A stretch of DNA of 58,585 nt, from IMG/VR virus record IMGVR_UViG_3300013280_000002, positions 1 to 58,585 of that record. One strand, given 5' to 3'. The stretch's first letter is position 1. Each line of letters begins with the position of its first letter. The stretch comes from a virus. Positions 3,374 to 33,194 of this stretch are shown in pieces. Below the pieces are notes generated by a model that saw nothing but the letters and a program-made list of their open reading frames with translations, made no database searches and had not been told where the DNA came from. Both the position numbers and the translations under genes were made by a program.

Positions 3374-3750
3374 AAACCCTTTACGTGTTTCCGATTGTCT
3401 CGGCGAGTAGCGCGTCGCACCCACCGCAGCACCGCCCACGCCGACACCGTGAGCGCGAGCACCCAGGCCGATGCGACGAGCTGCCACGCTGCGATCGGCC
3501 GCGCCTGCACTTGCGCGTGCGCCACGATGTGGCCGGGGTAGCCCCCGAGCGCGTGCGTCCAGTGCCGCAGCGGGGCGTCGGGCTCGTAGCGCGTCACCGT
3601 GCCGTCCGCGGCCTCGTGCCACACGTGCATCAGCGGCCCGCGCCGGGACCCCGCCGCGACGAACCGCCCGCCCTGGTCGGCGAGCAGGTCCATCGTGATG
3701 GTGACGCAGTTCTGCTTCATGACGGGCGCGCGAGGGGGATTAGATTTCAC
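3370..3750 (-). CDS. hypothetical membrane-anchored protein (start uncertain)
   Basis: 126-aa ORF whose stop overlaps the endolysin start. C-terminal TM helix WQLVASAWVLALTVSAWAVL followed by a basic tail. No clear RBS. Visibly more GC-rich than its neighbours. Confidence 0.4.
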   Translation of the reverse strand: MKSNPPRAPVMKQNCVTITMDLLADQGGRFVAAGSRRGPLMHVWHEAADGTVTRYEPDAPLRHWTHALGGYPGHIVAHAQVQARPIAAWQLVASAWVLALTVSAWAVLRWVRRATRRDNRKHVKGL

Positions 3751-6403
3751 GCATAAACGGGTCGGATATCGTCACCGTCGCCCCGTTCGGCGCACTCATG
3801 TAAAACTGCATCTCGACGGGGTAATCTCCGAAATTCTCCACCCCACCGTGATCCGGCCACGCCGCCCCCGCCAACGAGCCGAATACAGCCGTGAGTGCGC
3901 TATTAGCCGTGTTGGAGAGCGAAATTGCGCCGCCGTTGTTCGGCTGACTTACGCGCCTCGGCCCTTCGAGCACCACTCTGCCGTTTTCCGCCCGCGCGAC
4001 CGTGTGCCACTCAGACGCAGCAACAAACTGCGCATTTGCAGCGATGGCTGCATTGATCGCTGCCGCAACATCTTTTGCCGTGGCCGCCGCCGGGTTAGCC
4101 GCGCCAGCCGATCCGTCAATCGTGATTGCGCTATAGGGCGCAATCGTCAGCGAGATATTTTTGTTTGTTGAAAGGTCGAATGGCTGAGAGTTGCCGCCAA
4201 TGATTTTTGCGCGTCCACGCCCGAGCCACCCCGGAGTCTCGAACTCAATGAACACCTGCCCGCCTGTTTGCAACCAATCTGCCGTAATGCTGGTAATCGG
4301 GGCGCCTGCGAGCGAGTCGGGCCACATCCCGCGACGTGTTGCGATCTGCACCCGAGCAGACGTTACGGCCCCGGATGTCGCAACATTAAACCCCGCTCGA
4401 TATCGGCGTCCGGGCTTGACTTGGATAAATGTGTTGATAGGGACTAGCGCAACACCGGCTGAGGTGAATGTAATTGAGCCATTCGAGGCTGTAACGCTCG
4501 GCAGACTAGCGGTATTGAGCCGCCATCCGTGAACAATGATCCCATTCGGGTCTGTTGCACGCAGATCGACTGGCGCATGAGCGAAGATGGGGTTAAAGAC
4601 CAGATTACGCGGGGACGGAATTTGCTCGGCAATCATCGCAATCTCCTCCGGCGCGACGGGGACAATGCGCCCGGCTTCAAACTCTGTGCGCAGCGCCGAC
4701 AGAAGTTCCACCATCCCGGCCTCGCTCATGTCGTTGTCGATGTCAAGCGAGTTGAGATAATAGCCCGACGACCCTGCGACAGACCCATCCTTAAGTGCTG
4801 CGTCTGTCATCACGCCATGCACTAGCATGTCGCACAAATGCCCAGGCGACGCGGCGATAGCTGCGACTAGCGATGCCGCATGGCCCGGCGCGTCGTAGTC
4901 GTTATTTGTTGCCGCGTGGATGTTAAACGTCGCGGCCTGACAAGCTGGCATCGCAGCGGGTCGGCGAATCCCGTCGAAGTTATTTCCACGTAAGTGGATG
5001 TGCGCGTCAGATGCACCGCCTACATGCAGCATATGCTTGAAAAACCGCGCCCCCGCCTGTGCGAAATTATTTAGCTGGACGCCCTGTGCTGCGGCGTCCT
5101 GAATCGCTCCGGTGAAGTTCCGTTTGCGCAGATAGTGCGCGTCGTAACGACTGGCACTCAACACGGCCGGGAACCGCAGAGCCGGAATCCTGGACGTTGC
5201 ACGGATTCCGCGCGCCAGATTGGAGGCGTCTTCTTCGCCTGTGCAATATGGACGCGCCGCGCCCGCGTCGGCAACAATGGACGTTACGGTTACGCCGAAT
5301 TTGTCAGTGCTCAACGCCGAATTAAGCGCCTTGATTGCAGTCACCAGCGAGCCGAGCGTATAGCTAGACAGCGTAAAGTTCCCGATTCGGCACCCGTCCC
5401 GGTACAAATTTAGCGTGGTACTCGATAGCTCCATGACGAACGAGTCGCACGGCGTCATGCCCGAGTCCCACCACACACGAATGCCACCGGCAATTGAAAA
5501 TCCGGCGCGCGTCTTGACAGACTTCGCGCTACCCGATGCGATTGTCAGCAACGAGGATGACGCCTCAGAACCCGCCAGCTCTGCTGCATACGATGCAGTG
5601 TATTTCCCGGTCGCGTTGATCGCAGCGACAATCTCGGCAATCGTTGGGTACGTTGCAAACGCCAGCGAGAAATTATCGGCGCCGCCAGCCGTCGTTGCGA
5701 CAATCTCGGTGGCGGTCACATGCACTGTCGCCGTTGCAGCGGCCCCGGTGTATGTAATGTTGATGCCCGCGTCAGGCGCCTCACTGTCTTGATAGTGCCT
5801 CGCGCCGTGCGAAACGACCTCGACGCCGTGCCGATCCCGCAGAGCTTTGATCTGATCCCACGTCATCATCGCGGGATCGCCGGGGTTCGTCCCCGTGACT
5901 GACCGCGTATTGGTAGCTAAGTACGGACGAATTCCTGCGTCGGCATACATCGCCGCGAGGCCGTCGTTGCCGGTCCGCCCCCACCACTGATGGTAGGGAT
6001 GATCCCCACCGATCAGAACATACGCCGCCTGCGCGGACTGGCCGGGCGCGTAGGGTCGATTTCCGGCGGACAATCTAACCCCCCCACCCGGACCCGTTGT
6101 GGCTGTGACAATAGGCAGTCTCTCGCCCTCGTCACCCAGGAAATGAGAGAGCGTTTTTTGCTCAATCCCCACAACCATGTTCGAATCCACAGCACGAACA
6201 TGAACGGGCTGCCCGGATGTAAAGATGACGCTCTCTCGGACACTCACAGAGCGCCAAGTCACGCCGCCGTCTTCGCTTACATCAAACGTGTCATCAAGGG
6301 CAGATTTCCCTTGAAGCACGATGATATCAGCAGCGTCAATCTGAAACGTCTGGTCCTTGGCAATGGAAGCAGACATGGCCTGCGTATCATAGACGGGCTT
6401 CAT
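3740..6403 (-). CDS. tail fibre/tailspike with putative CE4 (NodB-type) polysaccharide deacetylase core and C-terminal carbohydrate-binding-like domain
   Basis: 887 aa. VLIGGDHPY...VVSHGARH...ARPY...LVHGV resembles the NodB motif order. The Ala/Gly/Thr-rich repeats are typical of fibres. Confidence 0.6.
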   Translation of the reverse strand: MKPVYDTQAMSASIAKDQTFQIDAADIIVLQGKSALDDTFDVSEDGGVTWRSVSVRESVIFTSGQPVHVRAVDSNMVVGIEQKTLSHFLGDEGERLPIVTATTGPGGGVRLSAGNRPYAPGQSAQAAYVLIGGDHPYHQWWGRTGNDGLAAMYADAGIRPYLATNTRSVTGTNPGDPAMMTWDQIKALRDRHGVEVVSHGARHYQDSEAPDAGINITYTGAAATATVHVTATEIVATTAGGADNFSLAFATYPTIAEIVAAINATGKYTASYAAELAGSEASSSLLTIASGSAKSVKTRAGFSIAGGIRVWWDSGMTPCDSFVMELSSTTLNLYRDGCRIGNFTLSSYTLGSLVTAIKALNSALSTDKFGVTVTSIVADAGAARPYCTGEEDASNLARGIRATSRIPALRFPAVLSASRYDAHYLRKRNFTGAIQDAAAQGVQLNNFAQAGARFFKHMLHVGGASDAHIHLRGNNFDGIRRPAAMPACQAATFNIHAATNNDYDAPGHAASLVAAIAASPGHLCDMLVHGVMTDAALKDGSVAGSSGYYLNSLDIDNDMSEAGMVELLSALRTEFEAGRIVPVAPEEIAMIAEQIPSPRNLVFNPIFAHAPVDLRATDPNGIIVHGWRLNTASLPSVTASNGSITFTSAGVALVPINTFIQVKPGRRYRAGFNVATSGAVTSARVQIATRRGMWPDSLAGAPITSITADWLQTGGQVFIEFETPGWLGRGRAKIIGGNSQPFDLSTNKNISLTIAPYSAITIDGSAGAANPAAATAKDVAAAINAAIAANAQFVAASEWHTVARAENGRVVLEGPRRVSQPNNGGAISLSNTANSALTAVFGSLAGAAWPDHGGVENFGDYPVEMQFYMSAPNGATVTISDPFMREI

Positions 6404-6822: not shown

Positions 6823-8267
6823 TGCCTTGCCTCGATGGTGTAGAGCGCTTGCTTGGCGCGGGTTGCTGCGACATAGCACAGATTGACTTCTTGTTGCTTC
6901 TGCCAATCCTGACGAGCCCACTTGGCGGGGCATTCGTTGCGGCCGAGCCAGAACACGCGGTCAGCCTCCAGGCCCTTGCTCTTGTGGATGGTAGCCAACA
7001 CCACAGCGTTCTTCTTGTCAGAGAACAGGCTGTCGATGGTGTTGAGCAATGCGGGGATCGTGCGCTCAGTTTCGGGCATGCTATCGATCAGGCAGGTGAT
7101 GGCACCGATGCGGTCTTCGATTGCTTCCACCTTCGCGTCGTCCTTCTTAGCGAGGGCCTTCTCGACCTCACGGTCACGGTAGGCGTCCAGCTTGGTGAGC
7201 AGGTGATCAACGCCCTTCGCGTTCATCTTGTTGATAAGACCCTTCAGCCCCTGCCCAATCTCACGGCCCATCACGGTGACAGGTACGCGAGCGCGGAGGA
7301 ATCTGTAGGCCATCGTGATCAGCGGTGCAGTCTTACGGCTGACGACGAGGTCGTTCGCTTGAAACATCTTGTGATCCCACCTGCTTCCGAGCTCTTCCAC
7401 CAGACCTTCGGCAGCACCTTCGGCCGCCTGGATGTGGGACACCCATTGCTGAGCGTACTTGACCACACTGGTCGCGCAGCGGTAGCTGATGCTCAGCGGT
7501 AGGCGCACAGCGTCGAATTCCTGAGCGATAAGGTTCAAGGACTCGCTGTCTGCACCGCGGAACCCGTAGATGGCCTGGGCAGGGTCACCCACCGCTACGA
7601 TGCGCGCACCCTTGCGCATGATCTTCCGAAGCAGTGCGCGCTGAATGGCGTTCGTGTCCTGCGCCTCATCCACGAAGATGAAATCGAACTTCGGCAGGCT
7701 GATCCCGTCCTTCACCGCAAGGTAGAGCAAGTCGTCAAAATCGACCATCGGTGCAGCGTTCGACCAGCCCAGCAGCTCGGAGGCCAGCTCCAGGGCACGT
7801 CCGAGATCCGCGTTATCGTTTTCGGGTTCGAGGTCGTGGTGGATGCACAGGTCCAGCCAGCTCTGAGTGACGTCAGGGATCAGACAACCGATACCAGCCT
7901 GACGCCCCAGGCCCACCAGCTTGGTGATGAAGGCACCGTAGATCCGCGCCTCCTCGCCCTTGAGCTTGGCGTCGCACAGGCGGCGCAGTTTGTCGATCTC
8001 GACAGTGCGGACGCCCTTATGCTGGGTGACCGGGCCGTAAGTCAGGGAATGGAACGTGCGAGCATTGACGCCACGGGACTTCAGTTCCTCAGCGATGCTC
8101 TTGTTGAACGCCAGGAAGATGGTCGTGCCCCGCGCACGCTTGACGCCCTCAACGATGGTCGTCGTCTTGCCGGAACCTGCGACAGCTTCGATGATAGCGT
8201 TGCCGCCGTTCGGGTCTTCAATCAGGTTGAAGATGGCGGTCTGCAGGGGGCTCCAAGTCTTGCTCAT
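6819..8267 (-). CDS. UvrD/Rep/PcrA-like superfamily 1 DNA helicase
   Basis: 482 aa. Walker A AVAGSGKTTTI and Walker B FIFVDEAQDTN. C-terminal SF1 motifs TIHKSKGLE and YVAATRA. GGAGAA RBS. Confidence 0.9.
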   Translation of the reverse strand: MSKTWSPLQTAIFNLIEDPNGGNAIIEAVAGSGKTTTIVEGVKRARGTTIFLAFNKSIAEELKSRGVNARTFHSLTYGPVTQHKGVRTVEIDKLRRLCDAKLKGEEARIYGAFITKLVGLGRQAGIGCLIPDVTQSWLDLCIHHDLEPENDNADLGRALELASELLGWSNAAPMVDFDDLLYLAVKDGISLPKFDFIFVDEAQDTNAIQRALLRKIMRKGARIVAVGDPAQAIYGFRGADSESLNLIAQEFDAVRLPLSISYRCATSVVKYAQQWVSHIQAAEGAAEGLVEELGSRWDHKMFQANDLVVSRKTAPLITMAYRFLRARVPVTVMGREIGQGLKGLINKMNAKGVDHLLTKLDAYRDREVEKALAKKDDAKVEAIEDRIGAITCLIDSMPETERTIPALLNTIDSLFSDKKNAVVLATIHKSKGLEADRVFWLGRNECPAKWARQDWQKQQEVNLCYVAATRAKQALYTIEARQ

Positions 8268-8309
8268 GGTGTTCTCCGAAGAATTGAGTACATGGTGGAA
8301 AGTGATTGC

Positions 8310-8338
8310 AGTATAAACGGGCGTTGCAGGATGTGCAA
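8310..8338 (-). promoter_or_regulatory. sigma70-like promoter TTGCAC-17-TATACT upstream of the helicase
   Basis: Complement strand, intergenic region 8268..8353. Confidence 0.45.
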
Positions 8339-8353
8339 GCCCGTTCTCGATAA

Positions 8354-8662
8354 TCAGCCGATCCAGTAAGTGGCCTTCTGATCTTCACCGTACCGCAGCT
8401 CTTCAATCGTGATTCGCGCACCGCGAGCTTCAAGAGAGGCGGACAGCATTCCGGACACCAGATGCAGCGCGTCCTTCCGGCTGATGCTCAGGTAGGTGCA
8501 GAGCCCGTCATGGAAGATGCTGTCAGGCTTACCCTCGATCGAGGCGTCAAGGCGCACGCGAAGGCAGAACCTGCCGGAGTTGGTGCGATCCACCTTCTTC
8601 ACGAAGGCAACAGCCTGCTCGGTGGTAAGCAGATGGGTGACGGTGGTGTATTCGAGCGACAT
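8354..8662 (-). CDS. hypothetical protein
   Basis: ATG 8662 with an AGGAG RBS. 102 aa with no motif I recognise. Confidence 0.6.
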   Translation of the reverse strand: MSLEYTTVTHLLTTEQAVAFVKKVDRTNSGRFCLRVRLDASIEGKPDSIFHDGLCTYLSISRKDALHLVSGMLSASLEARGARITIEELRYGEDQKATYWIG

Positions 8663-8695
8663 TTTGCATCTCCTAAACGTGTTGGACATGACTGC

Positions 8696-8723
8696 ATTAT
8701 ACAGACACGTCTAAAAGATGCAG
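8696..8723 (-). promoter_or_regulatory. possible promoter CTGCAT-16-TATAAT
   Basis: Complement strand, intergenic region 8663..8737. Confidence 0.35.
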
Positions 8724-8737
8724 GCGACTTCGTGAAT

Positions 8738-8971
8738 TTAATCGCGGGCGAGCATAAGCTGGCGCTGGAGCATCTGCACCGACGCCAGGCTGTCGAGCAT
8801 CAGATCCAGCAGCGCGTGAAGATTGTTTCTGTTGAGGTCAGCTTCCTGCCCGTGGTTATCGAGACAGGCGGCCTGATACATGTGCAGCGCTGCATCGTAG
8901 CGTTGCTGATACACGGTGCTCTTTAGAACCTCTTCCTGCATCGCTTGAACGATCTGAGCTCGGTTCATCAT
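8738..8971 (-). CDS. hypothetical protein
   Basis: 77 aa. The start overlaps the upstream stop. Confidence 0.55.
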   Translation of the reverse strand: MMNRAQIVQAMQEEVLKSTVYQQRYDAALHMYQAACLDNHGQEADLNRNNLHALLDLMLDSLASVQMLQRQLMLARD

Positions 8972-9429
8972 GCCCCCACAGGTTTCCAGGCACCAGTCTG
9001 GAGCATACGACGCATCCAGTTATAGGCGAAGGTCTCGAAGTCCTCGTGGCTGATTTCACAGCGCATGGGGGAGTGAGCCTGACCACACTGATAGGCCACG
9101 TTCGCCTCGATCAGGATGCGCCACTTGCGCTTGCCATTCTGGCGGAACACGACAATCGGGCGCCCGCCGAACTGCTGTGCAGCGGTGACGCACTGCTTCC
9201 ACCATGCGTTCAGGTCCAGTTGCTCCTGACGCTTGACTTCCAGGCACATGAGCACAGGGTTCGTGATGTCGGAGCCCCCGACGGCAGACTGGTTCTGGTT
9301 GCGCTGGAAGATCGGCTTGGTGGAATAGGGCAAGCCCTCGTCCTTGAGCGCACGGTAGGCAATACCGTTGAGCCAGTCGCAGACCTCACGCTCCCCGCTT
9401 TGCCCCTTCTGTCGAATATTGATTCCCAT
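8968..9429 (-). CDS. PD-(D/E)XK Holliday-junction-resolvase-like nuclease
   Basis: KGQSGEREV...GGSD...LEVKRQE fits a D...E.K nuclease core. ATG 9429 has a GGAGGA RBS; GTG 9432 is an alternative start. Confidence 0.65.
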   Translation of the reverse strand: MGINIRQKGQSGEREVCDWLNGIAYRALKDEGLPYSTKPIFQRNQNQSAVGGSDITNPVLMCLEVKRQEQLDLNAWWKQCVTAAQQFGGRPIVVFRQNGKRKWRILIEANVAYQCGQAHSPMRCEISHEDFETFAYNWMRRMLQTGAWKPVGA

Positions 9430-9866: not shown

Positions 9867-10281
9867 TATTCACCTCACAATTAATTGCATATTCTCTGGC
9901 GCTTCTGCACCCGCCATGATGACAGATGCTTCCACCATGCCCCATCCGCGAGCCGCAGCAACACAGGTCAGCGTCGATCTTGCGGTGGCGCCACAGTGCA
10001 AGCCATCGCCTCCAGAACTTCGCCTTGTAGAGAGCAGTCGATGCCGCTGTGCTACCTGACACCGCCAGGAACACCTCGAGGACGAGCCATGTAGCTTGTG
10101 CCCAAGACAGATTCACCCCGTGTAACCACACAGCCAGGCCCACAGCCGACGCAATGCAGGTTAGCGCCACTACTGCGCTGATAGCGAACAATGGCGCGAC
10201 GCTGCGCTCCTGCTGCGCCCCCACCCATGGGCACTCCGACTGATCGTGCCCCACCCCTCCGCACAGGATACAGATCCTCAT
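9859..10281 (-). CDS. membrane protein with N-terminal CCHC zinc knuckle and C-terminal Cys/His cluster
   Basis: CILCGGVGHDQSEC equals C-X2-C-X4-H-X4-C. About three hydrophobic helices follow. C-terminal CCCGSRMGHGGSICHHGGC. GAGGAG RBS. Confidence 0.6.
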   Translation of the reverse strand: MRICILCGGVGHDQSECPWVGAQQERSVAPLFAISAVVALTCIASAVGLAVWLHGVNLSWAQATWLVLEVFLAVSGSTAASTALYKAKFWRRWLALWRHRKIDADLCCCGSRMGHGGSICHHGGCRSAREYAINCEVNNG

Positions 10282-10312
10282 TCCTCATCTCCTCGCTGAT
10301 GCAAACCGATGA

Positions 10313-10540
10313 TCATAAAGTCGAGCGCGGCGAATCCTTCCTGTTGAAATAACGGCGGATGGCATAGCCCCGAACAACGGACAGAGCGGTCATCCACGCC
10401 GTAATCTTGAAGTTGTTCTCCAACGGCATCGGAATGTCGTGGAACCAGCAGATCACGGCAGTGGCAATCATGGCAATGACCAGGCCGACTAGCGTATTGA
10501 CGACAGCCTCGAGCAGGCTATGCAATTTTGCCTGAGCCAT
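10313..10540 (-). CDS. small membrane protein
   Basis: ATG 10540 with an AAGGGAGG RBS. Two hydrophobic helices. Confidence 0.6.
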   Translation of the reverse strand: MAQAKLHSLLEAVVNTLVGLVIAMIATAVICWFHDIPMPLENNFKITAWMTALSVVRGYAIRRYFNRKDSPRSTL

Positions 10541-28755: not shown

Positions 28756-29463
28756 ATGAACTTACAACCAATCGAGAAGCGCACCAAGAGCGGTGACGTC
28801 CTGCTGTCCCTACACAGCATCTTTCACACCATCCAGGGCGAAGGCCCTTTCTGCGGAACTCCTTCCGTATTCGTCCGACTCGCAGGGTGCAATCTCCAAT
28901 GCCCCGCATGCGACACCGACTACACCCAAGGCCGGCGCGTTGCAAGCACCCAAGAGATCCTCGCCAAGGTGCAGGAATACCAGTCGAGCGGCCTTGTGGT
29001 CATCACCGGCGGCGAACCATTTCGCCAGGACATCACACGACTCCTCAACGTGCTGACCGATGCGGGCTTCTATGTCCAGATCGAGACTAACGGTACGCTC
29101 GAACCTGTCGAGTACCCTTACAGCACCATGCCCGACATTCGAACGGGCGTCTATGTGGTGTGCAGCCCCAAAGCTGGTAAGGTGCATCCCCGCACCAACG
29201 ACGTTGCCTGCTGCTTCAAATACGTGATCGCACATGACAGCATCCATGAGGATGACGGTCTGCCCTTGCGCGCTCTGGAGCATCAGGCAAGCCCGTATGT
29301 CGCCCGTCCGCCCAAGAACTGGGCGCGTCCGATTTACCTGCAACCGATGGACGCTAAAGACGACAGCATCAACCGACTGAACTTGCAAGCGGCCATCCGC
29401 TCCTGCATGAAGTTCGGTTACATCCTTCAACTACAGATCCACAAGATCATCGAAATGGAGTGA
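28756..29463 (+). CDS. queE: 7-carboxy-7-deazaguanine synthase QueE (radical SAM)
   Basis: FVRLAGCNLQCPACDTDY (C-X3-C-X2-C) and ITGGEP. GGAGG RBS. Confidence 0.88.
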   Translation: MNLQPIEKRTKSGDVLLSLHSIFHTIQGEGPFCGTPSVFVRLAGCNLQCPACDTDYTQGRRVASTQEILAKVQEYQSSGLVVITGGEPFRQDITRLLNVLTDAGFYVQIETNGTLEPVEYPYSTMPDIRTGVYVVCSPKAGKVHPRTNDVACCFKYVIAHDSIHEDDGLPLRALEHQASPYVARPPKNWARPIYLQPMDAKDDSINRLNLQAAIRSCMKFGYILQLQIHKIIEME

Positions 29464-29466
29464 GCT

Positions 29467-30867
29467 ATGTGCGCAATCATTGGCGCCTTGGTGTGGGGCT
29501 TGACCACACCTGAAGCACGGTCACAGGCCAACAGCCTGCTGAACCATATCATTCAGCAGAGCCACGAGCGCGGTCGCGACGGTCGGGGCTTCCTGACGAA
29601 CTACGGTGACGACATCGTTATCGAGAAGAGCACCGACCGCAAGGACGCGAAGGACTGGACGTCTGTCGAGTTCTTCAAGAGCGACGTGTCGTCCGCTACC
29701 TTTATCAGCAACCTGCGAGCCGAGCCGACAACCGAGTACGTCGCTGACAAGTCCCAGGACGATCAGCAACCTTACAGCGCGGGGCACTGGTCTATCGTGC
29801 ATAACGGCACCATCGCCAACGATAAGGCGCTGCGCACGGGCAAGGTGCCCACCCGCATCGACAGCGCGGCGATCGCGGAAGTCCTGGACGCCACCCTCTG
29901 TGACGGTTCCAATGCGTACCGAACCGCTCTGCACTTCATCGAGAGTGTGAAGAAACTCAAGGGCAGCTATGCGATCCTGGCGACCCATAGCGAGCAGAAG
30001 AATCATCTGCTGGTGGCAGCAAACTACCGCCCCATCTGGTTCGTCGTAACCGAAGTCGGCGTCTTCTTTGCAAGCGCGCGCCACTACTTTCCCGACAACA
30101 TGACTCCGCGCATGGTCGATCCATATTCGGTCATGAGTTTCTACTTCAGCGATCATCTTGAGATCCGCGGCGAGTCCCTGTACGACGTGGGCGCTCGTTC
30201 CAAGGCGCTCGTCGTGTGTAGCGGCGGACTGGACAGTGTGGTCGCTGCCACTTACGTCAAGAAGGTGCTGGGCTACGATGTGACGCTGGTGCATTTCAGG
30301 TATGGCAGCCGCGCGGAGGGCCCGGAGGTCTCTGCTATCTGGAAGGTGGCAGGAGCGCTCGGTGTGGGGCTGTGGATCCGCACAATCGACGCCTACGAGC
30401 CGGGCGATTCACCTTTGCTTCAAGCTGACAGCAAGATCGCTGGCGGTGAAGAGGGTGCCGAGTTCGCTCACGAGTGGGTTCCTGCTCGGAATCTGCTCAT
30501 GCTCGCACACGCCACCGCAATGGCAGAAGCGAAAGGGTTTGACACGCTGGTCCTCGGTAACAACCTCGAGGAAGCTGGTGCGTATCCTGACAACGAACCC
30601 GAGTTCATTGCCAAGTTCAACGACCTGCTGCCTTTCGCAGTTGGCGATGGAAAGCGCATGCGAGTCATGATGCCTGTGGGCAACCTGATGAAGCATGAGA
30701 TCGTGGCGCTGGGGCACCGCATTGGCGCACCGCTCGACAAGACCTGGAGCTGCTACCGTGCGGGCGAGCAGCATTGCGGGACGTGCGGTCCGTGCTACAT
30801 GCGACGCACCGCGTTTGACATCAACGGCCTCGAAGAGGTCATTTCTTACAGTAAAGACAAGGAGTAA
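29467..30867 (+). CDS. queC: Gat-QueC fusion: class II glutamine amidotransferase + 7-cyano-7-deazaguanine synthase
   Basis: N-terminal MCAIIG (Ntn Cys). QueC PP-loop CSGGLDS at aa ~251 and zinc site CYRAGEQHCGTCGPCYMR. Confidence 0.88.
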   Translation: MCAIIGALVWGLTTPEARSQANSLLNHIIQQSHERGRDGRGFLTNYGDDIVIEKSTDRKDAKDWTSVEFFKSDVSSATFISNLRAEPTTEYVADKSQDDQQPYSAGHWSIVHNGTIANDKALRTGKVPTRIDSAAIAEVLDATLCDGSNAYRTALHFIESVKKLKGSYAILATHSEQKNHLLVAANYRPIWFVVTEVGVFFASARHYFPDNMTPRMVDPYSVMSFYFSDHLEIRGESLYDVGARSKALVVCSGGLDSVVAATYVKKVLGYDVTLVHFRYGSRAEGPEVSAIWKVAGALGVGLWIRTIDAYEPGDSPLLQADSKIAGGEEGAEFAHEWVPARNLLMLAHATAMAEAKGFDTLVLGNNLEEAGAYPDNEPEFIAKFNDLLPFAVGDGKRMRVMMPVGNLMKHEIVALGHRIGAPLDKTWSCYRAGEQHCGTCGPCYMRRTAFDINGLEEVISYSKDKE

Positions 30868-30871
30868 CCAC

Positions 30872-31294
30872 ATGCCCTGGCAAGCCAAACGATATCACGA
30901 CATCAGCTGCGGACACCGCGTCTTCCAGCACGAGTCGAAGTGCGCGCATCTGCACGGCCACAACTATCGAGTCCATTTCACCTGCGAAGCGGAGGAACTG
31001 GACAACATCGGCCGCGTGATCGATTTCAGCGACATGAAGTCCCGCCTGTGCATGTGGCTGGAAGATCATTGGGATCACAAGACGCTCATCTGGGAGAACG
31101 ACCCGTGGGCCAAGGTGCTGCCCGAAATTGACCCGACGATCGTGATCGTCCCCTTCAACCCTACAGCCGAGAACATTGCTCAACATCTCGTTGAAGTGAT
31201 AGGCCCGCAGCAGCTCGCAGGCACCGGCATCAAGCTCGTACATTGTGACGTCGAAGAGACGCGCAAGTGCTCCGCATCTTTTCACGCTCACTGA
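30872..31294 (+). CDS. queD: 6-carboxytetrahydropterin synthase QueD
   Basis: CGHRVFQHESKCAHLHGHNY and DHKTL. AAGGAG RBS. Confidence 0.88.
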   Translation: MPWQAKRYHDISCGHRVFQHESKCAHLHGHNYRVHFTCEAEELDNIGRVIDFSDMKSRLCMWLEDHWDHKTLIWENDPWAKVLPEIDPTIVIVPFNPTAENIAQHLVEVIGPQQLAGTGIKLVHCDVEETRKCSASFHAH

Positions 31295-31303
31295 GGACAC
31301 ATC

Positions 31304-32197
31304 ATGCAACTGACCCTGAATCATAACGACGTGCAGGCGCTCGCGCAGCGGGCAGCACGGGCCATTTTGGCCTTCGGTGCTACCATTGGCCGCACCCTGC
31401 TGGCTTACCCCGTACCGCGCGGCGGTGTGCCCGTTGCGTACCTGCTGCAAGGGCTCGCAGGGTTCAGCATCACCGACGACCCCGAGAAAGCCGATTTCTT
31501 CATCGATGACCTGATCGACAGCGGCAGCACGATGGAGCACTGGTGCGACCAGTTCCCAGGCAAGCCCTTCTTCGTGCTCATCGACAAGAAGACGGACGAA
31601 GAGTTCAAGGGTCGCTGGATCGTGTTCCCGTGGGAAGGTGACGCCGAGTCCGGCATCGAAGACAACATCCGCCGTCTGCTCCAGTATGTCGGGGATGATC
31701 CTGCCCGAGAAGGTCTGCTCGAGACCCCGCATCGCGTCGCCAAGGCCTGGCGTCACTGGTGCGGCGGTTACGGCAAGGACCCGAAGGGCATCCTGAAGGT
31801 GTTCGAAGACGGTGCGGAGAAACATGACCAGATGGTGACGGTGCGTGACATCCCCATCTACTCCCATTGCGAGCATCACCTCGCGCCGATCTTCGGCACG
31901 GTCACGATCAGCTACATCCCGAACGGTCGTATCGTGGGCCTGAGCAAGCTGTCCCGCCTGGCGGACATGTATGCTCGCCGGTTGCAAGTGCAGGAACGGC
32001 TCACAGACCAGATCGCGGACGCACTGTTCGAGCACCTGGAAGCGAAGGGCGTCGGTGTGGTCATCAAGGCGCGACACATGTGCATGGAGTCCCGTGGCAT
32101 CTGCCAGCAGGGGCACCACACGGTGACGACTGCTCTTCGTGGCGCGATGAAGGATGAACCGGACACCCGTGCCGAGTTTCTTCGGCTTGCCCAGTAA
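31304..32197 (+). CDS. folE: Gpt-like phosphoribosyltransferase domain fused to GTP cyclohydrolase I (FolE)
   Basis: aa 1-~110 carry VPRGGVPVAYLL, FFIDDLIDSGST and WIVFPWEG (type I PRT/XGPRT-like). aa ~115-297 carry the FolE motifs ETPHRVAKAW, SHCEHHLAPI and ARHMCMESRG. Confidence 0.85.
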   Translation: MQLTLNHNDVQALAQRAARAILAFGATIGRTLLAYPVPRGGVPVAYLLQGLAGFSITDDPEKADFFIDDLIDSGSTMEHWCDQFPGKPFFVLIDKKTDEEFKGRWIVFPWEGDAESGIEDNIRRLLQYVGDDPAREGLLETPHRVAKAWRHWCGGYGKDPKGILKVFEDGAEKHDQMVTVRDIPIYSHCEHHLAPIFGTVTISYIPNGRIVGLSKLSRLADMYARRLQVQERLTDQIADALFEHLEAKGVGVVIKARHMCMESRGICQQGHHTVTTALRGAMKDEPDTRAEFLRLAQ

Positions 32198-32215
32198 CAG
32201 CCAGTTCGCTATAAT
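32187..32215 (+). promoter_or_regulatory. possible internal promoter TTGCCC-17-TATAAT at the folE 3' end
   Basis: Perfect -10 hexamer 13 nt after the folE stop. Confidence 0.35.
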
Positions 32216-32241
32216 GTAGGGACGTCTTCGGATGTCCCTAC
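32216..32241 (+). other. UUCG-tetraloop hairpin followed by ATTTT, upstream of dpdA
   Basis: GTAGGGACGTC-TTCG-GATGTCCCTAC: 11 bp including one G-U pair. Confidence 0.5.
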
Positions 32242-32255
32242 ATTTTGGAGGTCTC

Positions 32256-33194
32256 ATGAACATCTTTATGGCGGCAGTCTATACGAACGGATACATGGAA
32301 GGTCAGGCGCGCCATGCCAAGCTGACAGAGCACGAGCAGAATCTTGTCCAAGCGGTTCCGCATGTATTGGAGTCGTTTCACTATGTATCAAAACAGCGTT
32401 ATGTCGATGATATGCGGCGTGACGGTGCCCAAGTGTTCCTGGACTCGGGAGCGTTCTCTGCCTACACGCTGGGCGTCGAAATTAGCGTCGCGGAGTATTG
32501 CGACTATATCACCCGCAACAGAGACATCATTCGCGTCGAAGATGGTGTCGTGATGGCGTCTGTGCTGGACGGCATCGGTGACCCTTTGCAAACATGGCGC
32601 AATCAGCTCGAGATGGAGCAGCGCGGCGCCAAGCCCCTTCCCTGCTTCCACGCTGGAGAGGACGAGCGTTATCTGGAATGGTATGTTGCGAACTACGAAT
32701 ACATCACGCTAGGCGGCATGGTGGGCTCTAGCACTCAGCAGCTCTGCATCTGGCTGGACAGGATATGGGATCGCTACCTCACCGACGGTAGCGGCAATCC
32801 GAAGATCAAGGTGCATGGCTTCGGTATCACAGCCGTTCCAATCATGGAGCGCTATCCGTGGTATTCCTGTGACTCGTCCTCCTGGATTCAGTCCGCTGCA
32901 TTCGGCAGCATTATCGCCCCAGGCTACAGCCGGAGCACGATGGCACTTCCGATGAGCGTGTCGGAGAAGTCCCCCAGCAGGCACGACGCTGGGCAGCACG
33001 TGACCACACTGACACCCATCGAGCAAGACTACGTTCTGCAGATGCTCGAGAAGCACGGTTTCACGCTTGAGCGCCTTTCCACCGTGTATGAGTCACGCGC
33101 CGCCTACAATCTGTGGGCGTTCGGTGTGATCAACACAATGATCAACGCTGCACACTCGAACACGTTCCGGGCGCGCATCCAGGAGCTCTTCTAA
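32256..33194 (+). CDS. dpdA: DpdA-type DNA guanine transglycosylase (TGT superfamily)
   Basis: VFLDSGAFS, ITLGGMVG and YSCDSSSW motifs. GGAGG RBS for ATG 32256. Confidence 0.8.
   Translation: MNIFMAAVYTNGYMEGQARHAKLTEHEQNLVQAVPHVLESFHYVSKQRYVDDMRRDGAQVFLDSGAFSAYTLGVEISVAEYCDYITRNRDIIRVEDGVVMASVLDGIGDPLQTWRNQLEMEQRGAKPLPCFHAGEDERYLEWYVANYEYITLGGMVGSSTQQLCIWLDRIWDRYLTDGSGNPKIKVHGFGITAVPIMERYPWYSCDSSSWIQSAAFGSIIAPGYSRSTMALPMSVSEKSPSRHDAGQHVTTLTPIEQDYVLQMLEKHGFTLERLSTVYESRAAYNLWAFGVINTMINAAHSNTFRARIQELF

What the first reader, a model, noticed from the sequence alone, without database searches (positions are those of the whole stretch)
31304..31650. Gpt-like phosphoribosyltransferase domain fused to the N-terminus of GTP cyclohydrolase I
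Seen in the sequence: the FolE ORF is about 110 aa longer than a normal FolE core. The extension carries type I PRT signatures in the correct order:
- VPRGGVPVAYLL (PPi loop, compare Gpt AVSRGGLVPGALL);
- FFIDDLIDSGST (PRPP-binding motif, compare IVIDDLVDTGGT);
- WIVFPWEG (compare the Gpt C-terminal WIEQPWD).
The segment between the first two motifs is shorter than in E. coli Gpt.

Inference: DpdA releases one free guanine for every base it exchanges. A guanine PRT joined to the first enzyme of the preQ0 pathway could recycle that guanine (guanine + PRPP -> GMP -> GTP -> FolE), or could sense guanine or PRPP. I am not aware of this fusion having been described, but I cannot search to confirm that.
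Basis: partly seen in the sequence, partly recalled or inferred. Interest (0 to 1): 0.7.

Follow-up and report, generated by a model that had tools for sequence, protein, structure and literature searches.

The report
Loop-less Gpt-like PRT domain on phage FolE
The phage's GTP cyclohydrolase I really does carry an unannotated, stripped-down guanine-phosphoribosyltransferase-like domain at its N-terminus; the same fusion recurs in at least 148 other viral contigs that encode 7-deazaguanine DNA-modification genes and in some bacteria, but whether it recycles guanine or only senses a purine ligand is untested.

Summary
Observation confirmed. ORF 31304-32197 (+) encodes one 297-aa protein. Residues 118-296 are a complete FolE (Pfam 1.8e-70). 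Residues 1-113 are a compact type I phosphoribosyltransferase (PRT) fold. A single-sequence search barely detects it (PF00156 E=0.35). A 139-sequence profile matches E. coli/Y. pestis XGPRT (Gpt) over its full length (E=1e-10). An AlphaFold model (pLDDT 94.8) retrieves XGPRT as the top Foldseek hit.

It is not a frameshift artefact. The fusion occurs in 19 phage records with more than 90% identical N-domains, in 148 of 150 IMG/VR loci examined, and in Dehalococcoidia chromosomes.

The PPi loop, PRPP motif, 6-oxo lysine and base-stacking Trp/PWE equivalents are 85-99% conserved across 226 sequences. The catalytic flexible loop II is deleted throughout the family.

The module always partners FolE, either fused or as an adjacent gene in either order. 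In phages it lies inside QueD/E(/C)+DpdA clusters. A close relative, phage MiCath, lacks it.

My best reading is a minimal guanine/6-oxopurine PRT that tops up the GTP pool FolE consumes, which in phages would recycle guanine released by DpdA. A non-catalytic purine/PRPP sensor that regulates FolE is a serious rival.

Public records name the protein only "GTP cyclohydrolase I", and I found no paper describing the domain. Verdict: new variant of a known kind, moderate interest.

The parts
31293..31297 (+). Shine-Dalgarno-like GAGGA, 6 nt upstream of the ATG at 31304. It overlaps the QueD stop codon (TGA, 31292-31294).
   Evidence: Read directly from the sequence.
31304..32197 (+). Single 297-aa ORF encoding the PRT-like domain fused to FolE (end coordinate includes the stop codon).
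   Evidence: ORF list and translation. Full-length AlphaFold2 model: pLDDT 94.8, pTM 0.73. The same ORF is in Quinobequin-P09 (QFR59680.1, 894 nt) and in a 64-member cluster named only 'GTP cyclohydrolase I'.
31304..31642 (+). N-terminal minimal type I PRT domain (aa 1-113) of the Gpt/XGPRT lineage.
   Evidence: Profile against PDB gives XGPRT at E=1e-10. AlphaFold2 pLDDT 94.8. Foldseek top hits are XGPRT. The best BFVD hit is the Cellulophaga phiST PRT. hhalign against phiST gp064 gives probability 99.2%.
31415..31426 (+). Loop I (PPi loop) P38-R39-G40-G41, equivalent to S36-R37-G38-G39 of E. coli XGPRT.
   Evidence: Alignment to XGPRT. Conservation across 226 unique sequences: P 96%, R 92%, G 97%, G 98%.
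31460..31495 (+). Shortened connection (aa 53-64, GFSITDDPEKAD) that replaces the beta-hairpin carrying flexible loop II of XGPRT. About 18-22 residues are missing.
   Evidence: Gap in the HMM alignment to XGPRT. Arg-to-DD spacing is 29 here, family mode 29-30, against 51 in Gpt. DSSP on the model shows only a short strand at 54-56.
31496..31531 (+). Loop III (PRPP-binding motif) F65-F-I-D68-D69-L-I-D72-S73-G74-S-T76, equivalent to XGPRT 85-96 (D88, D89, D92, T93, G94, T96).
   Evidence: Alignment. Conservation: D68 99%, D69 99%, D72 96%, S/T73 97%, G74 99%, T76 99%.
31586..31588 (+). K95, equivalent to XGPRT K115 and HGPRT Lys157/165, which contacts O6 of the purine.
   Evidence: Alignment. 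K 85% plus R 5%. The role of the lysine in HGPRTs is described in PMC2228302.
31616..31636 (+). Loop IV-like base-binding segment W105-I-V-F-P109-W110-E111, equivalent to XGPRT W134-I135-E-Q-P138-W139-D140.
   Evidence: Alignment. Conservation: W105 95%, P109 96%, W110 95%, E111 95%. The same C-terminal WIVFPWE motif occurs in P. horikoshii purine PRT 1VDM and in phiST gp064.
31655..32194 (+). Complete FolE (GTP cyclohydrolase I, type IA) domain, aa 118-297. Putative Zn ligands are C189 (31868-31870), H192 (31877-31879) and C260 (32081-32083).
   Evidence: PF01227 1.8e-70, profile positions 1-178 of 179. TIGR00063 scores 221 bits against a cut-off of 181.6. C189 and C260 are invariant and H191/H192 at least 90% conserved in 34 fusion proteins.
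28756..29463 (+). QueE (radical-SAM CDG synthase), the first gene of the cluster.
   Evidence: ORF. Annotated QueE in Quinobequin-P09 and other records.
29467..30867 (+). Gat-QueC (class II glutamine amidotransferase fused to QueC).
   Evidence: ORF and annotations. The Gat-QueC phage group, to which Quinobequin-P09 is assigned, is predicted to make dG+ (PMC6884629).
30872..31294 (+). QueD (CPH4 synthase). The start is taken at the Met of MPWQAK, which matches the 423-nt PaMx25 queD.
   Evidence: ORF. PaMx25 annotation. The start codon is not proven.
32216..32241 (+). 11-bp stem with a TTCG loop, lying between folE and dpdA. A sigma70-like match lies just upstream at 32187-32215.
   Evidence: Sequence. 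Promoter scan. PaMx25 annotates a terminator at the equivalent place. The simple terminator scan did not call it.
32256..33194 (+). DpdA (DNA guanine/7-deazaguanine transglycosylase). The likely start is ATG 32256, after a GGAGG.
   Evidence: ORF. The Quinobequin-P09 homologue is 939 nt. It is annotated as a tRNA ribosyltransferase/tgt in related phages.

Best explanation
**Shown.** The gene encodes one polypeptide with two folded domains.
- The C-terminal 180 aa are an ordinary Zn-dependent GTP cyclohydrolase I.
- The N-terminal ~113 aa are a pared-down type I phosphoribosyltransferase descended from the small Gpt/XGPRT-like purine PRTs.
- The domain keeps the PPi loop, the PRPP/5'-phosphate loop with its three aspartates, the lysine that reads the purine 6-oxo group, and the Trp...PWE segment that stacks on and hydrogen-bonds the base.
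- It has lost the mobile catalytic hairpin (loop II) and about 10 residues before the stacking Trp.
- It belongs to a large family of FolE-partner modules. These are nearly always fused to FolE and occasionally encoded next to it. They occur in phage QueD/QueE(/QueC)+DpdA clusters whatever the final 7-deazaguanine, and also in some bacterial chromosomes.

**Inferred mechanism.**
1. The module binds a guanine-type 6-oxopurine together with PRPP.
2. It works as a minimal guanine PRT (guanine + PRPP -> GMP + PPi).
3. Host Gmk and Ndk then return the GMP to GTP, the substrate of the attached FolE.
4. During infection this would re-use the guanine that DpdA ejects one-for-one when it inserts preQ0. 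It would also re-use guanine from degraded host nucleic acid. Free guanine would stay low, so the base exchange would not run backwards.

The fusion guarantees 1:1 co-expression with the first pathway enzyme. It does not imply channelling, because two kinase steps intervene.
For: **Domain identity**
- Profile against PDB, AlphaFold2 model and Foldseek against PDB all point to XGPRT.
- The best BFVD hit is the phiST PRT, and hhalign against phiST gp064 gives 99.2%.
- Family members hit Pfam Pribosyltran and phrog_8995 on their own.

**Selection on ligand-binding and catalytic equivalents**
- R39, G40, G41, D68, D69, D72, S73, G74, T76, W105, P109, W110 and E111 are 92-99% conserved and K95 85% (plus R 5%). 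This holds across 226 unique sequences that are only ~30-55% identical to the window domain.
- Conservation is equally high in fused and unfused members and in the Dehalococcoidia copies.
- The general-base Asp (D72, equivalent to XGPRT D92) would not be needed merely to dock a ligand.

**Pathway link**
- In 83 loci (80 from IMG/VR, plus Quinobequin-P09, PaMx25 and the window): 81 have FolE, 80 QueE, 79 QueD, 66 QueC and 72 DpdA.
- A second set of 70 loci is all fused, and 60 of them have DpdA.
- The fusion occurs with Gat-QueC, with plain QueC and without QueC. It therefore acts on something common to all variants, such as guanine, GTP or PRPP, rather than on a particular end product.

**Module autonomy**
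- Separate genes occur in the orders QueD-PRT-QueE-FolE, QueD-PRT-FolE and FolE-PRT.
- P0002 is the PRT module cut exactly at the domain boundary and kept intact in a different phage in at least 4 contigs.

**Precedent**
- PRPP-dependent PRTs already operate in 7-deazapurine pathways: TubE is a CDG PRT (PMC6112128).
Against: - Loop II, which type I PRTs use in forming the transition state (PMC2228302), is absent. From memory, the XGPRT Arg69 that helps bind PPi has no equivalent either. Activity may therefore be low or nil.
- The partner is FolE, not DpdA, and GMP is two kinase steps away from FolE's substrate.
- The Dehalococcoidia chromosomal fusions have no DpdA or Que genes nearby.
- MiCath does without the domain. 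Only about 35 of 392 phage records with FolE show it, so it is accessory.
- The window domain scores far below the curated thresholds of PF00156 and of the XGPRT equivalog NF006613.
- No biochemical data exist.
Confidence: 0.42

Rival explanations
1. **Non-catalytic sensor.** The PRT fold has been converted into an allosteric ligand-binding domain, as in PurR or PyrR. It would report a purine signal directly to the attached FolE decamer and so gate the first step of preQ0/pterin synthesis. Candidate signals are guanine, GMP/GTP, PRPP, (p)ppGpp, or the end products preQ0/CDG. Unfused copies would act in trans as a regulatory subunit.
For: - Loop II is lost family-wide while the binding residues are kept.
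- The module is strictly associated with FolE, fused or adjacent in either order.
- It is present on a housekeeping FolE in Dehalococcoidia without DpdA nearby.
- Most unfused cluster representatives retain a copy of the first FolE helix (..IEDxxxRLLQY..), which could be a docking element.
- XGPRT-like folds bind ppGpp: PDB 5vog is among the Foldseek hits.
- The full-length model has pTM 0.73 with a short linker.
Against: - The general-base Asp and both Mg/ribose aspartates are 96-99% conserved, which is more than a base sensor would need.
- P0002 persists as a lone module in a phage with no FolE or Que genes within 20 kb.
- No FolE regulator of this kind is known.
- It is unclear why phages, which would be expected to want maximal flux, would keep a brake.
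Confidence: 0.32
2. **7-deazaguanine PRT.** The domain would phosphoribosylate a pathway intermediate (CDG, preQ0 or the G+ base) as TubE/ToyH do. This would make a 7-deaza nucleotide for a nucleotide-level route or for detoxification.
For: - TubE is a CDG-specific PRPP transferase and ToyH is its proposed preQ0 counterpart (PMC6112128).
- A full-size homologue, phiST gp064, sits in a phage that replaces G with 7-deazaguanine but has no DpdA or QueC (PMC10516641).
- The pocket reads the 6-oxo/2-amino face, which guanine and 7-deazaguanines share.
Against: - DpdA was detected in 72 of 83 and 60 of 70 loci, and many of the loci without it are short or end-truncated contigs. DpdA needs the free base, so a PRT acting on that base would drain its substrate.
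- The fusion is indifferent to which 7-deazaguanine is made.
- The Asp equivalent to the N7-directed general base is retained.
- Dehalococcoidia copies have no Que genes nearby.
- No kinase, RNR or dGTP-exclusion genes were seen to co-vary. This was not examined systematically.
Confidence: 0.12
3. **Structural appendage or decaying remnant.** The domain would only help FolE fold or assemble, or would be evolutionary baggage, with no ligand-dependent role.
For: - The domain is dispensable in relatives such as MiCath.
- It has been heavily trimmed relative to Gpt.
Against: Active-site equivalents are 92-99% conserved over sequences that otherwise share only about 27-33% mean column identity. This is the signature of selection on a binding site, not on a scaffold.
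Confidence: 0.06
4. **Artefact.** A sequencing frameshift joined two genes, or the motifs are a chance resemblance.
For: - PaMx25 and phage PIP records show split or fragmented annotations.
- The single-sequence PDB search gave only noise.
Against: - The same in-frame ORF occurs in 19 phage records and 148 of 150 IMG/VR loci.
- The PaMx25 'hypothetical protein' is out of frame with the tblastn match, and its folE simply starts at an internal codon.
- Profile and fold evidence are strong.
Confidence: 0.01

Closest known systems
E. coli / Y. pestis xanthine-guanine phosphoribosyltransferase (Gpt, XGPRT; PDB 1a95, 1nul, 5xtk, 6kp5)
   Same: - Best sequence-profile and structural match.
- Same order of loop I (S/P-R-G-G), loop III (DDxxD-T/S-G-x-T), the strand-5 lysine and the W-I-x-x-P-W-D/E base-binding segment.
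- Similar small size, with no large hood domain.
   Different: - About 40 aa shorter.
- The hairpin bearing flexible loop II (about XGPRT 51-69) and about 10 residues before W134 are deleted.
- Only 15-20% identity.
- Scores 16.5 bits against the 138-bit cut-off of the XGPRT equivalog.
- Fused to FolE, whereas Gpt is a free-standing tetramer (from memory).
Phage stand-alone PRTs of phrog_8995 (e.g. Cellulophaga phage phiST gp064, 142 aa) and P. horikoshii purine PRT 1VDM
   Same: - Clear homologues: hhalign probability 99.2%, E=1.5e-19.
- 107 of 139 family members hit phrog_8995, and phiST gp064 is the best BFVD structural hit.
- They share the terminal WIVFPWE motif.
- phiST also encodes FolE/QueD/QueE (PMC10516641).
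   Different: - phrog_8995 proteins keep the full-length loop II region and are not fused to FolE.
- In phiST the gene lies next to RNase H and ribonucleotide reductase, not in a Que cluster with DpdA.
TubE / ToyH, the PRPP-dependent 7-deazapurine phosphoribosyltransferases of tubercidin and toyocamycin biosynthesis
   Same: A type I purine PRT encoded together with FolE, QueD and QueE homologues. TubE is shown to use PRPP + CDG (PMC6112128).
   Different: - They are ~190-aa stand-alone proteins described only as purine PRPP transferases by BlastP.
- They belong to nucleoside-antibiotic clusters that lack a transglycosylase.
PRT-fold regulatory proteins (B. subtilis PurR effector domain, PyrR)
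   Same: A type I PRT fold that retains the PRPP motif but serves mainly to bind a ligand. PyrR chains appear among the weak profile hits.
   Different: Those are fused to or act on DNA/RNA-binding functions, not on a metabolic enzyme. The comparison rests on my own knowledge, not on a test here.
Gat-QueC, the other domain fusion in the same cluster
   Same: An accessory catalytic domain fused to a core preQ0-pathway enzyme in phages. It is present in this window at 29467-30867.
   Different: Gat-QueC is described and is linked to dG+ formation (PMC6884629, PMC10516641). The PRT-FolE fusion is not mentioned in those papers.

Membership tests
Type I phosphoribosyltransferase superfamily (PF00156-like fold) | PRPP-binding motif: hydrophobic strand, two acidic residues, then a small-residue loop that binds the 5'-phosphate | tested here: met
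   FFIDDLIDSGST, aa 65-76. D68/D69/D72/G74/T76 are 96-99% conserved and align to XGPRT 85-96.
Type I phosphoribosyltransferase superfamily (PF00156-like fold) | Alpha/beta core of parallel strands flanked by helices, with loop I (the PPi loop) after the first strand | tested here: met
   The AlphaFold2 model has strand/helix alternation E33-36, H41-52, E65-71, H75-83, E89-94. Foldseek probability is 1.00 to many type I PRTs. PRGG is at 38-41.
Type I phosphoribosyltransferase superfamily (PF00156-like fold) | Flexible loop II that closes over the active site during catalysis | tested here: not met
   An ~18-22 residue deletion lies where XGPRT has the hairpin. Arg-to-DD spacing is 29 against 51; the family mode is 29-30, and only about 3 of 215 sequences exceed 40.
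Type I phosphoribosyltransferase superfamily (PF00156-like fold) | Pfam gathering threshold for PF00156 | tested here: not met
   The window domain scores 10.6 bits against a 26.3 cut-off, E=0.35. 44 of 146 relatives reach E<=0.01, best 4.2e-6.
Xanthine-guanine PRT (Gpt; NCBIfam NF006613 equivalog) | Equivalog score cut-off | tested here: not met
   16.5 bits against 138. It should not be filed as a Gpt orthologue.
Xanthine-guanine PRT (Gpt; NCBIfam NF006613 equivalog) | 6-oxopurine-binding residues: Lys115, stacking Trp134, Ile135 backbone, Asp140 (roles from my own knowledge of the XGPRT structures; HGPRT equivalents are in PMC2228302) | tested here: met
   K95, W105, I106 and E111 align to these positions and are 85-95% conserved.
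Xanthine-guanine PRT (Gpt; NCBIfam NF006613 equivalog) | PRPP-dependent guanine/xanthine phosphoribosyl transfer | not testable with these tools
   Needs an enzyme assay or genetic complementation.
GTP cyclohydrolase I FolE (TIGR00063 / PF01227), C-terminal domain | Curated score cut-offs and full-length domain coverage | tested here: met
   TIGR00063 scores 221 bits against 181.6, and NF006825 238 bits against 174. PF01227 covers positions 1-178 of 179.
GTP cyclohydrolase I FolE (TIGR00063 / PF01227), C-terminal domain | Zn-binding Cys/His/Cys and the CEHH motif | tested here: met
   SHCEHH is at 187-192. C189 and C260 are invariant and H191/H192 at least 90% conserved in 34 fusions.
phrog_8995 phage phosphoribosyl transferase | Full-length match to the 148-position profile | tested here: inconclusive
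   The window matches only profile positions 84-140 (E=1.2e-4). However, 107 of 139 relatives match (best 2.6e-13), and hhalign to a member gives 99.2%. I read this as a related, trimmed sister group.
TubE/ToyH 7-deazapurine PRTs | Sequence relatedness and CDG/preQ0 substrate use | not tested
Only the published activity was consulted.

The most novel reading that the evidence does not exclude
The loop-less PRT module may be a previously unrecognised, dedicated partner of GTP cyclohydrolase I, conserved from tailed phages to Dehalococcoidia.

One reading is that it closes a guanine -> GMP -> GTP -> preQ0 -> DNA cycle, so that phage DNA hypermodification is self-financing in guanine. The other is that it is the first known purine/PRPP-responsive allosteric switch on a prokaryotic FolE.

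Either reading adds a sixth conserved component to the phage 7-deazaguanine DNA-modification toolkit. It would also define a new catalytic or regulatory solution for a type I PRT that lacks its flexible loop.
Probability: 0.35. Interest if true: 0.7.

Novelty: new variant of a known kind. Interest (0 to 1): 0.55.

Why it matters
- **A missed component.** 7-deazaguanine DNA modification is a major phage anti-restriction strategy, and its gene set is regarded as mapped (FolE, QueD, QueE, QueC/Gat-QueC, DpdA and tailoring enzymes). A conserved extra domain on the first enzyme has gone unannotated.
- **If it is an enzyme.** The pathway would recycle its own by-product. The domain would also show how far a type I PRT can be trimmed and still work.
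- **If it is a sensor.** It would be a new mode of FolE control, relevant also to folate and queuosine metabolism in Dehalococcoidia.
- **Practical consequence.** Annotation pipelines miss the domain (Pfam E=0.35), and at least one deposited genome (PaMx25) mis-splits the gene.

Tried and rejected
- **Single-sequence phmmer of aa 1-119 against PDB.** It returned only antibody light chains and noise. The homology became visible only with a family profile.
- **First word-indexed homologue search.** It found only 5 proteins. The exhaustive search was needed.
- **PADLOC.** No match for the domain or for three unfused relatives, so there is no link to known defence PRTases.
- **Whether the polA phage carrying the lone module (P0002) has Que genes elsewhere.** This could not be settled:
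  - Contig walking with the DNA search only returned the same 5-kb block.
- **'Many stand-alone genes'.** I first read the 150-representative list this way. In IMG/VR nearly all copies are fused. Many short representatives may therefore be fission products, fragments or rare forms. Only four unfused contexts were inspected, plus one uninformative context.
- **Host-salvage correlation.** I considered whether the fusion appears only where the host lacks Gpt. It looks unsupported, because Vibrio phages have the fusion and E. coli phages lack it. It was not tested properly.
- **Terminator scan.** The simple scan did not call the folE-dpdA hairpin.
Full report
**What the window is.** The 58.6-kb window is about 93% identical at the nucleotide level, across the 4.5-kb Que cluster region queried, to Pseudomonas phages NP1, PAJD-1 and Quinobequin-P09 (Queuovirinae, Nipunavirus). 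The finding lies in the 7-deazaguanine DNA-modification cluster. Its gene order is:
- QueE, 28756-29463
- Gat-QueC, 29467-30867
- QueD, about 30872-31294
- the ORF in question, 31304-32197
- DpdA, about 32256-33194

Hutinet et al. 2019 placed Quinobequin-P09 in the Gat-QueC group, which is predicted to make dG+ (PMC6884629).

**Checking the observation.**
- The ORF is 297 aa and is preceded by GAGGA 6 nt upstream of its ATG.
- Pfam, NCBIfam and PHROGs all place a complete FolE at residues about 116-296 (PF01227 1.8e-70; TIGR00063 221 bits against a cut-off of 181.6).
- The first ~115 residues are almost invisible to single-sequence searches. PF00156 gives E=0.35, the XGPRT equivalog gives E=0.005 at 16.5 bits, phrog_8995 gives 1e-4 over half the profile, and phmmer against PDB gives nothing meaningful.

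**Is it really a PRT?**
- An exhaustive phmmer search of 1.84 billion representatives found 500 clusters at E<=1e-3, 149 of them at E<=1e-10.
- A profile of 139 trimmed N-domains (A2) matches Y. pestis and E. coli XGPRT at E=1e-10 to 1e-9 across the whole domain. Archaeal purine PRTs, HGXPRTs and HPRTs follow.
- AlphaFold2 with that alignment gives pLDDT 94.8 and pTM 0.87.
- Foldseek against the PDB returns XGPRT entries in the first 14 places, with TM 0.58-0.72 normalised to the query.
- Against BFVD the best hit is the annotated phosphoribosyl transferase of Cellulophaga phage phiST. It is a homologue by hhalign (probability 99.2%, E=1.5e-19).
- 44 of 146 relatives hit Pfam Pribosyltran on their own, and 107 of 139 hit phrog_8995.

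**Anatomy relative to Gpt.** The profile alignment gives these equivalences, window residue to E. coli XGPRT residue:

| Window | XGPRT | Element |
|---|---|---|
| R39-G40-G41 | R37-G38-G39 | loop I |
| D68, D69, D72, S73, G74, T76 | D88, D89, D92, T93, G94, T96 | loop III |
| K95 | K115 | strand-5 lysine |
| W105-I106 | W134-I135 | base stacking |
| P109-W110-E111 | P138-W139-D140 | base-binding segment |

In type I purine PRTs, loops I and III hold the two phosphate ends of PRPP. A strand-5 lysine reads O6/N7. Loop IV stacks an aromatic residue on the base and hydrogen-bonds it through backbone atoms and an Asp. Flexible loop II is implicated in transition-state formation (PMC2228302). The XGPRT-specific residue roles come from my own knowledge of the 1997-98 structures.

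Across 226 unique family sequences, typically ~30-55% identical to the window domain, these positions are 92-99% conserved, with K95 at 85% plus 5% R. The figures are the same for fused and unfused members.

Two segments are missing:
- The hairpin that carries loop II. Arg-to-DD spacing is 29 here, with a family mode of 29-30 and a range of 23-47, against 51 in Gpt.
- About 10 residues before the stacking Trp.

The domain is a binding-competent but lid-less mini-PRT.

**Not an artefact, and how widespread.**
- tblastn finds the N-domain, in frame with FolE, in 19 phage records at over 90% identity. It also finds it at 40-60% identity in Stenotrophomonas, Variovorax, Vibrio and Sphingomonas phages.
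- The exact protein sits in a 64-member 90% cluster, and every named member is called only 'GTP cyclohydrolase I'.
- Two IMG/VR scans returned 80 loci each.
- With HMMs built iteratively from the window's own proteins, 78 of the first 80 IMG/VR loci and 70 of the 70 new loci in the second set have PRT and FolE in one ORF.
- In the first set, counted over 83 loci including the window and two phage records, QueE is in 80, QueD in 79, QueC in 66 and DpdA in 72.
- In the second set of 70, QueE is in 66, QueD in 63, QueC in 50 and DpdA in 60. Several loci that lack DpdA are short or end-truncated contigs.
- The fusion occurs with Gat-QueC (16 loci), with plain QueC, and in clusters with no QueC.
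- About 35 of 392 phage records with a FolE show the domain.
- Phage MiCath has the same QueE / Gat-QueC / QueD / FolE / DpdA order and a 75%-identical FolE of 186 aa, but no PRT domain.
- The split annotation in PaMx25 is an out-of-frame 'hypothetical protein' plus a folE begun at an internal codon. Phage PIP looks frameshift-ridden.

**Unfused forms.** Where the module is a separate gene, the contexts inspected were:
- Between QueD and QueE, upstream of a 196-aa FolE (P0005).
- Directly upstream of a 179-aa FolE (P0007).
- Directly downstream of a 228-aa FolE (P0015).
- P0002 (141 aa, 56% identical to the window domain) is the module cut exactly at the domain boundary. Its 90%-cluster mate P0167 is a 301-aa fusion. 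P0002 sits in a DNA-polymerase-A phage just after an Acb2/Tad1-hairpin gene, with no Que genes in the 20 kb seen.
- About 64 cluster representatives are ~150-aa proteins. At least 42 of them keep a copy of the first FolE helix (..IEDxxxRLLQY..) followed by an unrelated short tail.

**Cellular occurrences.** They include PRT-FolE fusions in about 11 Dehalococcoidia/Tepidiformaceae MAG chromosomes. In the one neighbourhood examined in detail, the flanking genes encode Ada, an MA-family peptidase, cyclophilin, enoyl-CoA hydratase and dehydrogenases. No Que or DpdA genes lie within 8 kb in these Dehalococcoidia loci. The motifs are intact. One Limnohabitans MAG contig instead carries the full phage-type cluster.

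**Interpretation.**

*Shown:*
- The fusion is real, ancient and widespread.
- The N-domain is a Gpt-lineage PRT fold under strong selection at its PRPP- and purine-binding positions.
- It lacks loop II.
- Its constant partner is FolE.

*Inferred:*
- The main reading is a minimal guanine/6-oxopurine PRT that returns guanine to the guanylate pool feeding FolE.
- In DpdA phages, one guanine is released per preQ0 inserted and one GTP is consumed per preQ0 made. The domain would therefore make the modification pathway stoichiometrically self-supplying and keep the exchange from reversing. I give this 0.42.
- Conservation of all three aspartates, including the general-base equivalent, favours catalysis. 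So do indifference to the end product, survival of the module as an independent gene, and the TubE precedent for PRTs in 7-deazapurine pathways (PMC6112128).
- The missing lid argues against it. So do the FolE-centred rather than DpdA-centred linkage and the Dehalococcoidia copies.

*Rivals:*
- The main rival (0.32) is that the fold has become a ligand sensor regulating FolE, in cis or in trans. This would explain the loss of loop II and the obligate pairing with FolE.
- A TubE-like 7-deazaguanine PRT (0.12) is disfavoured, because DpdA needs the free base.
- A purely structural role (0.06) does not fit the conservation pattern.
- An artefact (0.01) is excluded.

**Comparison with the known, and novelty.**
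- It works like, and descends from, Gpt-type purine PRTs. It fails the membership tests for Gpt itself: the equivalog score is not met and loop II is absent. It also falls below Pfam's threshold.
- It is best described as a trimmed sister group of phage phrog_8995 PRTs that has become a FolE partner.
- I found no description of it. 'Phosphoribosyl' does not occur in the main text of the two reference papers on phage 7-deazaguanines, nor in the iggy or MMDA13 papers. Combined full-text searches were empty or irrelevant.
- These searches cover only open-access literature, so an earlier mention cannot be excluded.
- Rating: new variant of a known kind, interest 0.55.

**Caveats.**
- ORF calling in the loci was a simple longest-ORF procedure.
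- The family HMMs were built from the loci themselves.
- Model coordinates could not be inspected, so pocket geometry and the inter-domain interface are unknown.
- The XGPRT residue roles are partly from memory.

Noticed in passing
L002 (Pseudomonas phage PaMx25 JQ067084.3, locus 1464-2394), equivalent to window 31304-32197: The deposited annotation splits the 297-aa gene. It has a 'hypothetical protein' PaMx25_38 that is out of frame with the real reading frame, plus a short folE started at an internal codon. This is an annotation error, not a biological split.
   Followed up: yes
L084/L085/L021 (metagenomic DNA-polA phage contigs), gene at 10001-10426: A 141-aa protein (P0002) is the PRT module cut exactly at the domain boundary. 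Its 90%-identity cluster mate P0167 is a 301-aa PRT-FolE fusion. P0002 sits right after an Acb2/Tad1-hairpin (anti-CBASS/Thoeris sponge-like) gene, with no Que, FolE or DpdA genes in the 20 kb seen. It may indicate an autonomous, perhaps counter-defence or salvage, use of the module.
   Followed up: partly
L083 (Cellulophaga phage phiST KC821604.1), locus 8743-9171: phiST gp064 is a full-size 142-aa homologue of the domain (hhalign 99.2%; best PDB match is P. horikoshii purine PRT). [quoted passage not shown] This PRT is therefore an obvious candidate for a base-to-nucleotide route. The 2023 paper does not mention it.
   Followed up: partly
L102, L104-L111, L113 (Dehalococcoidia/Tepidiformaceae MAG chromosomes), gene at about 7800-8800 of each locus: The PRT-FolE fusion is a chromosomal gene in these bacteria. 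In L105 it lies among housekeeping genes (Ada, MA-family peptidase, cyclophilin, enoyl-CoA hydratase). None of these loci has Que or DpdA genes within 8 kb, so the fusion is not phage-specific.
   Followed up: partly
P0019, P0082 (about 583 aa) and related representatives: Some family members have inteins and HNH endonuclease domains inserted inside the FolE domain (Pfam Intein_splicing, Hint_2, HNH_3). NP1-like phages carry a homing endonuclease within the Que cluster.
   Followed up: no
window 32187-32241: Between folE and dpdA there is a sigma70-like promoter match (TTGCCC-17-TATAAT). It is followed by an 11-bp stem with a TTCG loop, then TTTT and GGAGG. PaMx25 annotates a terminator at the equivalent place. 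DpdA most likely starts at ATG 32256, not at 32232 as in the mechanical ORF list.
   Followed up: partly
L098 (Pseudomonas phage PIP OR687155.1): The whole Que cluster is annotated as short fragments (QueE 639 nt, Gat 600 nt, FolE 357 nt), and the PRT region matches in two pieces with no CDS. It looks like uncorrected frameshift errors in the deposited sequence.
   Followed up: no
P0016, P0043, P0045, P0058 and about 40 other ~150-aa representatives: There is a recurrent unfused architecture: the PRT module, then a copy of the first FolE helix (..IEDxxxRLLQY..), then a short unrelated helical tail. These could be fission products that still dock on FolE, but such forms were almost absent from IMG/VR loci.
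   Followed up: partly
L097 (Pseudomonas phage MiCath NC_072502.1), locus 3483-4043: A close relative with the same QueE / Gat-QueC / QueD / FolE / DpdA order and a 75%-identical FolE has a plain 186-aa FolE with no PRT domain. It is a ready-made natural comparison for experiments.
   Followed up: yes
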